From positions 2,294,001-2,358,000 of the forward strand of contig OZ024754.1 in NCBI GenBank assembly GCA_964016885.1: a stretch of DNA of 64,000 nucleotides, read 5' to 3'. A program made the position numbers and the translations under genes. This document shows, piece by piece, positions 7,927 through 10,255 of the stretch (position 1 is the first letter of the stretch; every line of letters begins with the position of its first letter). Source of the stretch: Eledone cirrhosa. Taxonomy: Eukaryota. The notes under the pieces were generated by a model. The model saw only the letters and a list, made by a program, of their open reading frames with translations. It did not search any database and was not told the origin of the DNA.

Positions 7927-8002
<76 letters not shown>

Positions 8003-8033
8003 TGTAGTATAAATTTGTTATAAATATCCTATA

Positions 8034-8068
<35 letters not shown>

Positions 8069-8074
<6 letters not shown>

Positions 8075-8318
8075 TTCAAAATATTAACAAAAATAGACAT
8101 TCGTGTGATCAAGTATATTTTATTATACATATTTCAGAGGTACTGAGCTAACGTCAACAGTACGTCCTCATCAGATAAAATAAGATGATGCACGACATAC
8201 CCTGACATAGTAGATGGTTAAGATTCAGTCATGGTAGAACTCCGGAAAACCAAATCCAGTTGAGTGCTTCCAATCTATTGTAAAACTCATTCTTTGATTT
8301 ATTCATTGAACCTTGTTT

Positions 8319-8329
<11 letters not shown>
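8069..8329 (-). mobile_element. HHR-bearing non-coding element (PLE pLTR/retrozyme-like) in (TA)n
   Basis: Bounded by (TA)n and contains HHR 8116-8182. Shares blocks (atattaacaaa, gacataccct, gttgagtgctt) with 56643-56890; its 5' end matches 63944-64000. Confidence 0.8.
8116..8182 (-). ncRNA. Minimal type I hammerhead ribozyme
   Basis: Minus strand: TATTTTAT CTGATGA GGAC GTACTG ttgacgttagct CAGTAC CTCT GAAA TATGTA TA^ ATAAAATA. 8-bp helix I, intact core, near-palindromic helix III, AUA site. Confidence 0.85.
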
Positions 8330-8358
<29 letters not shown>

Positions 8359-8561
8359 AGAGATGTTATTTTTATCTAGAGATATTTTTTTCAAAATTCA
8401 ACCCCGCCCGTCCCTTCAATCTATCTTATTTCTCATTCTTTCTTCTAATGAAGGACTAGCGCTTGAAACGTTAAGACCCTCTTCCTGCTAGTTCAAGCGT
8501 TAACCTAATATATTTCTTTCATATACTGTACCGATTGTGTTGTTATTTCTGTTTAGCTTTT

Positions 8562-8606
<45 letters not shown>

Positions 8607-9043
8607 ATATGTTGAAAAGGTAACTCACCAGAGAGAAGATACAGTGCGCTATCAATAAAACAGGGAAAAACCACCAGTGTATGGAATCTATAACCTATGA
8701 AAGGCAGACTATAGACACGATAATTAAAAATATAAATAAATACCTCTATAACTATATAACACACGTACAAATCCGAAGAGATCTGTTTCGCCAGAAAGTT
8801 GTTGACAGAACTGGAATAACCCCGCTTCCTCAGCGTGTGTAAGGCTGTACATTTCAGACAACACTAAGAGAATTTTAAAAGTTACTGTCCAGCTACACGT
8901 GGGAGAGAGAAGTCACAGCGTGTTTAATGGCAGTGAACCAGTGGCCTCTGAGGGACGAGCTGCTAGAAAGGGCAGCCCAAAACCACTCAGAGAGGTGTAC
9001 TCAACCAAACAGAGAGAGAGGAAAGACTGTTATAACGAGCGAA

Positions 9044-9238
9044 ATATCACGATACATTAACGGAGCCATAGACTCTCGCCATTCCCTGTAAATAATGTGC
9101 TCAAAGGAGAAGTAATCCTGAGGTCTTTAAAATACAATATGTTGTTGTATTTTAAAGAGCTCAGGATTTCTTCTCCTTTGAGCACATTATTTACAGGGAA
9201 TGGCGAGAGTCTATGGCTCCGTTAGTTTATCGTGATAT
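9044..9238. repeat. Fold-back inverted repeat, 94-bp arms, 7-nt loop
   Basis: 9044-9137 vs 9145-9238 reverse complement, 4 mismatches by eye; ends in (TA)n. Confidence 0.95.
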
Positions 9239-9290
9239 ATATATATCCACTCCCCTACACACCATTTGAACTCTGTTCCCACACACTTCT

Positions 9291-9324
9291 CACCTGAAGA
9301 AGGGCTTATGCCCGAAACGTCGTC
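9291..9324 (+). ncRNA. Minimal HHR motif, helix I poorly paired
   Basis: Core, 4-bp helix II and ACGT palindromic helix III present; only 2 bp of helix I. Confidence 0.55.
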
Positions 9325-9760
9325 CCCCACCTACCCCCCACTCTCCTGAGCGTGAATTTAATAAACATTTATTATATTGCCTCTCTGTTCTGTCCCTGTT
9401 CAATTTTTCATTATATATAACACACGCTCACACGGCTTCCATCCTTGGAACTTAACTTAACAACCGGCTCAACCCCGATCTAATCCGCCGTGACCTTTCT
9501 CCGAACTTTACACACCTTCCCACACTTTGTCTTTCCTTCCACGCATTACCTCTGTTTGATTTTGTTACCGTACCTTTTTTCCGTATAAGATTCTTTGCCT
9601 GTGTTCTTACAATTGTATTTCTATGATTTTTTGTTCACGATCGCCTGTGTTATATTTTTTGTCTTTATTTGTTAATTTTTCATTCGCACCGTTTCCTTTC
9701 GCTATATGTCTCTCCACCACTCCCCTACACACCTTTTGAACTCTGTTCCCACACACTTCT

Positions 9761-9794
9761 CACCTGAAGAAGGGCTTATGCCCGAAACGTCGTC
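9761..9794 (+). ncRNA. Minimal HHR motif, helix I poorly paired (second pLTR)
   Basis: Identical to 9291-9324. Confidence 0.55.
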
Positions 9795-9879
9795 CCCCAC
9801 CTACTCCCCACTCTCCTGAGCGTGAATTTAATAAACATTTATTGTACTGCCTCTCTGTTCTGTCCTTGTTCAATTTTTC

Positions 9880-9982
<103 letters not shown>

Positions 9983-10134
9983 TGAGCGGGCTGTGCCATT
10001 GAATAGGCTGAGTTAAGCATCGGCAAAATGGCAGAGTTTCCGTTGAGAGAGGCGGGGATGCAACTCCTACTATTATGTCATCAGTGAGACAACTAAGCGA
10101 ACACGATGTATCCGCCCTAAAAATATATATATTT

Positions 10135-10255
<121 letters not shown>

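What the first reader, a model, noticed from the sequence alone, without database searches (positions are those of the whole stretch)
8116..8182. Three intact minimal hammerheads share a C.C mismatch at helix II pair 4 and an AUA site
Seen: HHRs at 8116-8182, 56689-56753 and 61852-61907 (all minus strand) have different helix II sequences (GGAC/CTCT, AAGC/CCCT, GGTC/CATC at the base, then 6-8 covarying bp). All three place C opposite C at the 4th position. All use an 8-nt (near-)palindromic helix III ATA(T/C)(G/A)TAT and an AUA triplet. Established: palindromic short helix III typifies PLE HHRs thought to cleave as dimers, and helix I-II contacts boost activity. Inference: the C.C internal loop is a conserved structural or tertiary feature of a distinct HHR subfamily. 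The sample is only three.
Basis: partly seen in the sequence, partly recalled or inferred. Interest (0 to 1): 0.72.

Follow-up and report, generated by a model that had tools for sequence, protein, structure and literature searches.

The report
Retrotransposon hammerheads keep an unpaired cytosine
These three motifs are copies of a predicted self-cutting RNA at the tail end of a Penelope-like jumping gene found tens of thousands of times in this genome, and its families keep one cytosine unpaired in an otherwise fast-changing stem, likely because it is a contact point that the RNA needs in order to fold and cut.

Summary
Observation confirmed. They end short, truncated copies of Hydra-clade Penelope-like retrotransposons; the first and third families flank RT/GIY-YIG ORFs elsewhere in the genome. 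About 77,000 of 88,000 pattern matches have C.C. C-G or G-C make up 1.4%, as scattered single mutants. In 22 lineages C10.4 is invariant and pair 4 never pairs, while neighbouring pairs covary and the proteins have diverged by about one change per site, so selection is likely. Corrections: the fixed trait is an unpaired C10.4 (partner C, sometimes A or U). AUA is not universal (17 of 22). They are not 'minimal' hammerheads as published. None of 26 published Hydra-clade rows has C.C; 16 have C-G there. Likely mechanism: cleavage as a pair through the palindromic helix III, with C10.4 as a contact. No partner base was found and cleavage is untested. Earlier scan notes found the same trait elsewhere in this genome. 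One key paper (Lunse 2017) could not be read. Verdict: new variant of a known kind.

The parts
8116..8182 (-). Type I hammerhead HHR1 (family A): C10.4 at 8164, C11.4 at 8139, helix III 8132-8125, predicted cut between 8124 and 8123
8070..8322 (-). 5'-truncated Hydra-clade element end between (TA)n arrays: direct part about 8070-8237 carrying HHR1, inverted tail piece about 8238-8322; 3' end 54 nt past the cut site
   Evidence: same family flanks an RT-EN ORF in L277 and L068
56689..56753 (-). Type I hammerhead HHR2 (family C): C10.4 at 56735, C11.4 at 56712, extra A.C mismatch at pair 2, predicted cut between 56697 and 56696
56644..56910 (-). Truncated element end carrying HHR2, with an inverted tail piece at about 56810-56910; 3' end 53 nt past the cut site
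   Evidence: related hammerheads flank an RT-EN ORF in direct tandem in L072
61852..61907 (-). Type I hammerhead HHR3 (family H): C10.4 at 61892, C11.4 at 61872, predicted cut between 61857 and 61856; 1,448 exact genome copies of the 60-nt stretch
61807..61966 (-). Truncated element end carrying HHR3, between (TA)n runs; 3' end 50 nt past the cut site
   Evidence: same hammerhead flanks an RT-EN ORF in direct tandem in L269
24679..24753 (-).

Best explanation
The motifs are type I hammerheads in the terminal repeat of one branch of Hydra-clade Penelope-like retrotransposons; they are predicted to cut as pairs, and their unpaired C10.4 likely serves as a base-specific contact that docks helix II against helix I. 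Shown: the hammerhead anatomy, the position 3' of RT/GIY-YIG ORFs and in inverted or tandem repeats, the (TA)n targets, the invariance of C10.4, and the absence of a fixed G opposite it. Inferred: (1) a single motif cannot form helix III, so two motifs (for example those at both ends of a tandem transcript) pair through the 8-nt palindrome and cut after AUH; (2) helix II varies from 20 to 47 nt, so its end loop cannot dock at a fixed place, and the mismatch three pairs from the core would take over the contact made by loop 2 in canonical hammerheads; (3) the window's copies are lone truncated insertions and likely inert, with selection acting on the source elements. My odds for the steps: Hydra-element hammerhead about 0.93, selection on C10.4 about 0.85, RNA-RNA contact rather than another role about 0.4.
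For: Element identity: ORFs with RWK, DKT, CxCx5C, CxxC and CxH motifs match the Hydra definition in PMC8557442 section 11. Linked hammerheads: L061, L072, L269, L277, L271. Selection: C10.4 in 22 of 22 lineages and pair 4 paired in 0 of 22, while pairs 2, 3, 5, 6 and 7 pair in 20-22 of 22 with A-U/G-C/U-A swaps. C10.4 needs 0 changes against a mean of 5.3 (minimum 2) in 43 other columns. Linked endonuclease domains are only 45-48% identical, and the HHR3 family is about 1.1 changes per site from L061 on the tree. Base identity matters: copies often decay to U or A at 10.4 (3,275), but no family in the first 100 listed has fixed it. C-G (448) is scattered over many families. Dimer: predicted monomer helix III pairing is 0.01; the three window palindromes self-pair at -2.2 to -6.5 kcal/mol; the centre varies among UA, UG and CG. 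Dimer cleavage of short palindromic helix III hammerheads is reported in PMC4209133.
Against: No invariant partner base in helix I, and no covariation between the 11.5-11.8 strand and 1.1-1.4 (p 0.16-0.19). Most of the 22 lineages were picked by hand from searches that required C at 10.4, and the parsimony tree was built from the same columns. In 26 published Hydra rows, 16 have C10.4 paired with G (counted by eye), so other Hydra elements work without the mismatch. Only about four family-level changes at 11.4 were seen, so the absence of G among them is not significant alone. The branch uniting these families has weak support (95/38). In an anole Penelope element, ribozyme-dead mutants still inserted in vitro (PMC11167929). 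No cleavage or structure data exist for these motifs.
Confidence: 0.4

Rival explanations
1. The unpaired C10.4 is a recognition mark for the element's own RT-endonuclease protein (or a host factor), which binds the repeat RNA to select its template or to chaperone a weak ribozyme.
For: Explains base-specific invariance with no RNA partner. Penelope-type hammerheads are weak in vitro and were proposed to need factors (PMC4209133). Insertions end about 50 or about 140 nt past the motif (65 and 33 of 127 copies), so the uncut motif sits next to where reverse transcription starts.
Against: No binding data. The proteins have diverged by about one change per site. An anole element did not need its full repeat for insertion in vitro (PMC11167929).
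Confidence: 0.25
2. The mismatch is only a weak hinge that keeps the base of helix II unstable, so that cutting stays slow or conditional; the identity of the base does not matter.
For: Predicted pairing of pairs 1-3 is about 0.4 with the mismatch and 0.65-0.89 with G at 11.4. Pair 1 is G-C in only 3 of 22 lineages. C.C, C.A and C.U are all tolerated.
Against: U.C or U.U would be as weak and arise often in copies, yet no lineage has fixed them.
Confidence: 0.2
3. C10.4 has no role and is simply inherited from the branch's ancestor; the pattern reflects shared descent and search bias.
For: The 91% copy-level figure is what a few percent of neutral decay from C.C masters would give. The families form one side of a branch. 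Lineage picking was biased toward C.
Against: Searches for non-C at 10.4 (first 100 rows each) show decayed copies and chance hits. The one recurring G-C family lacks helix I and a palindrome and lies on another branch. Every other non-core column changed at least twice.
Confidence: 0.1

Closest known systems
Hammerheads of Hydra-clade Penelope-like elements (Craig et al. 2021, PMC8557442; read: passages, section 11, supplement parts 1-2 including File S2)
   Same: Type I motif near the 3' end of RT/GIY-YIG elements with RWK, DKT and CxCx5C motifs; (TA)n targets; inverted 5' copies; often no extra base before 10.1 and a weak first pair (U.U, G.U); C at 10.4 in 16 of 26 rows.
   Different: Published rows pair C10.4 with G and none has C.C; most have short helix II; their helix III starts AC and is 9-10 nt, whereas here it is 8 nt AUAYRUAU with AUA, AUC or AUU.
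Minimal and short-helix-III hammerheads of metazoan Penelope-like elements (Cervera and de la Pena 2014, PMC4209133; read: parts 1-2 of 4 of the text, supplement parts 1-2 of 3)
   Same: Located in terminal repeats, palindromic helix III, longer-than-canonical helix II, thousands of lone copies and opposite-strand pairs, proposed dimer cleavage.
   Different: Their consensus has an extra base between 9 and 10.1 and G10.1-C11.1, both absent here. No C.C at pair 4 in the 56-row alignment read by eye; one sea-urchin row has C.A there.
Canonical metazoan type I hammerheads and non-LTR retrozymes (Cervera and de la Pena 2020, PMC7229834, passages; Li et al. bioRxiv 10.64898/2026.07.22.740005, parts 1-2 of 5)
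   Same: Two-pair helix III with a palindromic loop; an axolotl family has a U.U mismatch at the base of helix II.
   Different: Those sit in short tandem repeats with a 4-bp helix II and loop-loop contacts; these end protein-coding elements and have an internal mismatch in a 20-47-nt helix II.

Membership tests
Type I hammerhead ribozyme | Core CUGANGA, GAAA, UH with H not G | tested here: met
   intact in all four window motifs
Type I hammerhead ribozyme | Three helices with open helix I, supported by covariation | tested here: met
   helix I pairs 1-3 in 22 of 22 and helix II pairs 2, 3, 5-7 in 20-22 of 22 lineages, with swaps; an inclusion filter required some pairing
Type I hammerhead ribozyme | Match to an Rfam hammerhead model | tested here: not met
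   no hammerhead family at E<=10 in 8000-10200; one search showed only the top 150 of 291 rows, none a hammerhead
Type I hammerhead ribozyme | Self-cleavage at the UH site | not testable with these tools
   needs an assay; no RNA run was listed
Hydra-clade Penelope-like element | RT with C-terminal GIY-YIG endonuclease, RWK and DKT motifs, CxCx5C linker, CxxC and CxH | tested here: met
   CxCx5C, CxxC and CxH in hammerhead-linked L061, L269 and L277; DKT in L026; RWK seen only in L135, whose own hammerhead is not identified; definition
Hydra-clade Penelope-like element | Insertion in (TA)n, 5' truncation, inverted or tandem terminal repeats with a tail | tested here: met
Hydra-clade Penelope-like element | Phylogenetic placement with published Hydra proteins | tested here: inconclusive
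   published sequences were not put in a tree; homologs named from Hydra vulgaris and Argonauta hians are 35-37% identical and in the tree
Minimal hammerhead of Cervera 2014 | Extra base between 9 and 10.1 and conserved G10.1-C11.1 | tested here: not met
   no extra base; G-C in 3 of 22
Dimer-cleaving short-helix-III hammerheads | Palindromic, unstable helix III | tested here: met
   monomer pairing 0.01; palindrome or near-palindrome in 20 of 22 lineage representatives
Dimer-cleaving short-helix-III hammerheads | Second copy in the same transcript | tested here: inconclusive
   direct tandems 3.7-4.0 kb apart exist (L072, L269); the window copies are single
Non-LTR retrozyme | Short non-coding tandem repeats, each with a hammerhead | tested here: not met
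   no such arrays at the four window loci; the families flank ORFs

The most novel reading that the evidence does not exclude
This branch of Hydra elements has evolved a new way to activate a hammerhead: a single unpaired cytosine three pairs from the core replaces the loop 1-loop 2 contact and works across the two halves of a dimer or through the element's own protein, which frees helix II to grow and makes cutting conditional on the element's own RNA-protein complex.
Probability: 0.25. Interest if true: 0.7.

Novelty: new variant of a known kind. Interest (0 to 1): 0.44.

Why it matters
Why Penelope-like elements keep hammerheads is an open question, since a ribozyme-dead element still inserted in vitro (PMC11167929). 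Here more than twenty diverged families and tens of thousands of copies single out one base outside the catalytic core as fixed. That gives a one-base test of whether the motif is kept for cutting, for protein binding or for both. It would also add a peripheral contact type to hammerhead structure, and it shows a large family that Rfam models missed in the stretch tested.

Tried and rejected
(1) Helix III as a primer site for (TA)n targets after cutting: rejected, because only 6 of 127 copies end within 20 nt of the cut site, 65 end 40-69 nt past it and 33 end 130-159 nt past it. (2) A link between the L135 ORF and its neighbouring C.C hammerhead: assumed after and withdrawn, because the hammerhead belongs to a separate insertion. 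The L149 link was dropped for the same reason; identities quoted use only clean links. (3) A G-C family (about 19 of the first 100 rows) as a counter-example: it has no helix I, no palindrome and lies on another branch. (4) An alternative pairing between the helix II 3' strand and the strand after the cut: not above shuffles. (5) A conserved G partner for the two cytosines in helix I or its flanks: none within 25 nt. U at position 1.7, recalled from memory as the canonical contact, is 16 of 22, no higher than its neighbours. (6) The motif in other organisms: a metagenome scan gave 116 or more stretches; none of the 80 fetched forms a hammerhead, 2 of 80 have C.C, and none encodes a related protein. 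(7) RNA evidence: no RNA holder listed. One contig of a second organism at depth 2 matched HHR1, too little to use. (8) The GIY-YIG Pfam search returned other Penelope-like families, not the partner; Pfam gave no hit on the L061 ORF. (9) Literature searches for this mismatch found no description. Lunse et al. 2017 is not held and was seen only through reviews (PMC6765202, PMC6466107, passages); figures are not readable, so a drawn C.C there or in Craig Fig. 1 cannot be excluded.

Full report
Observation. The three motifs are at the stated places on the minus strand. Each has the core CUGAUGA...GAAA, an 8-nt helix III AUAYRUAU, A at position 17, a helix I of 5-8 pairs, and C opposite C at helix II pair 4. 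HHR2 has a second mismatch (A.C at pair 2). A fourth motif of the same build has its core at 24748, with a 46-nt helix II and an AUC site. The descriptor finds 4 motifs in the window, all C.C, against 0.035 on average in 200 block shuffles. Other hammerheads in the window lack C.C, so the trait marks one type. Rfam did not report HHR1 at E<=10.

Genome counts. The window lies in a 3.0-Gb animal genome. The strict pattern has 50,379 matches with position 4 free and 45,845 (91%) with C.C; reversed controls give 28 and 0. With a looser pattern the position-4 table is: C.C 76,964 (slightly narrower pattern), C.A 3,530, C.U 1,999, C-G 448, G-C 820, U or A opposite C 3,275, neither C 1,012 with 224 in the control. 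The sum is about 88,000, and matches may overlap. Only the first 100 rows of each search were seen. The C.A rows are mostly two families that have fixed A. The C.U rows include at least one family that has fixed U. The C-G and U.C rows are single changes spread over the C.C families. The 91% figure alone does not show selection, because copies decay neutrally after insertion.

What carries the motif. Many copies come as opposite-strand pairs. [quoted passage not shown] The HHR1 family flanks one in L277, the HHR3 family in L269, hammerheads of the HHR2 type in L072, and the main C.A family in L271. The proteins carry the CxCx5C, CxxC, CxH and DKT motifs that define the Hydra clade in PMC8557442; RWK was seen in an ORF of the same type whose hammerhead is not identified. 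Copies sit in (TA)n. Of 127 copies, 65 end 40-69 nt past the cut site and 33 end 130-159 nt past it, which matches the two-ended tail of Penelope-like elements (PMC11167929). The integrated RNA was therefore uncut or rejoined at this site. The window has no such ORF; its four motifs are lone truncated ends.

Selection at family level. From 127 parsed copies I chose 22 lineage representatives by hand. C10.4 is present in 22 of 22 and pair 4 is paired in 0 of 22 (C.C 18, C.A 3, C.U 1). Pairs 2, 3, 5, 6 and 7 are paired in 20-22 of 22, and pair 3 takes A-U, G-C and U-A forms. On a simple tree C10.4 needs no change, against a mean of 5.3 and a minimum of 2 in 43 other columns. Cleanly linked endonuclease domains are 45-48% identical. 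On a 45-row protein tree the eight rows with the mismatch form one side of a weakly supported branch (95/38), with the HHR3 family about 1.1 changes per site from L061. In contigs of two public runs from one sample, variants of HHR1 above 3% within the motif fall in the loop, the centre of helix III (still palindromic) and helix I, not at either cytosine; that sample may not be independent of this genome. Caveats: most lineages came from searches that required C at 10.4, the parse filter required some pairing, and the parsimony tree used the same columns. The searches without C reduce this bias but show only 100 rows each.

Mechanism. Helix III is not predicted in a single motif (0.01), while the three window palindromes self-pair at -2.2 to -6.5 kcal/mol and the centre varies among UA, UG and CG. 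This fits the dimer model of PMC4209133; direct tandems 3.7-4.0 kb apart could supply both halves. For the mismatch, the identity of the base matters: C to U is common in copies but is not fixed in any lineage, which argues against a mere weak spot. I favour a contact with helix I (0.4), because helix I-II contacts are the known way hammerheads gain speed (PMC6155905, passages) and a 20-47-nt helix II cannot place its end loop at a fixed distance. Against this, no partner base is conserved, which leaves a protein contact (0.25), a hinge (0.2) or drift (0.1). None of these was tested by experiment.

Comparison with what is known. Hammerheads in Hydra-clade elements, palindromic helix III and dimer cleavage are published. 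In the 26 Hydra rows of File S2 (read by eye) none has C.C, 16 have C10.4 paired with G, and helix III is a different 9-10-nt type. This suggests C10.4 is old in the clade and this branch opened the pair. The motifs fail the published definition of minimal hammerheads. Eight literature searches found no description of the mismatch. Lunse et al. 2017 and all figures could not be seen, and bioRxiv supplements are closed, so the novelty claim has that gap. Earlier notes of this scan report the same trait on other DNA of this genome; I had reached the unpaired-C reading before that look-up, and the notes are not independent evidence.

Verdict. A real, abundant and probably selected structural variant of a known ribozyme in a known retrotransposon clade, with a sharp one-base test available. 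New variant of a known kind; interest 0.44.

Noticed in passing
window 9294-9317 and 9764-9787 (+): Two identical classic minimal hammerheads (extra A, G10.1-C11.1, no helix III) 470 bp apart in a direct repeat; a ready-made tandem dimer candidate.
   Followed up: no
window 8756-8843 (-): A different type I hammerhead with an extra A before G10.1-C11.1, an 8-bp helix III, a GUA site and a 7-bp helix I; it might cut as a monomer.
   Followed up: no
window 60420-60450 (+): Another minimal-type hammerhead with a 5-bp helix II, a UUU site and a 3-bp helix I.
   Followed up: no
22 lineage representatives, first 25 nt after the cut site: AAUAAA starts 4-12 nt after the cut in 10 of 22 lineages (shuffle mean 2.3, max 8; 0 of 22 upstream), often inside helix I. 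Cutting would separate the ORF from a poly(A) signal, or folding would hide it. Lineages are related, so the test overstates significance.
   Followed up: partly
L274 1236 and 6255, L275 1711 and 2796: A family with near-identical copies and a Hydra-type ORF whose hammerhead-like core lacks helix I and a palindrome; it may be spreading without a working ribozyme.
   Followed up: partly
L032 and L050, about 500 nt after the endonuclease stop: Other Penelope-like elements of this genome show a core-like UUGAUAA...GAAACCGGUA motif, resembling the published U3-A8 variant.
   Followed up: no
L108 1361, L285 387, L286 3557: A family has fixed C.U at pair 4 and a broken palindrome (AUACGCAU) together; it is a natural test case for the dimer model.
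   Followed up: partly
window 24430-24532: A 46-bp inverted repeat (87% complementary, 11-nt spacer) between (TA)n runs next to the fourth hammerhead; probably a separate small element.
   Followed up: no
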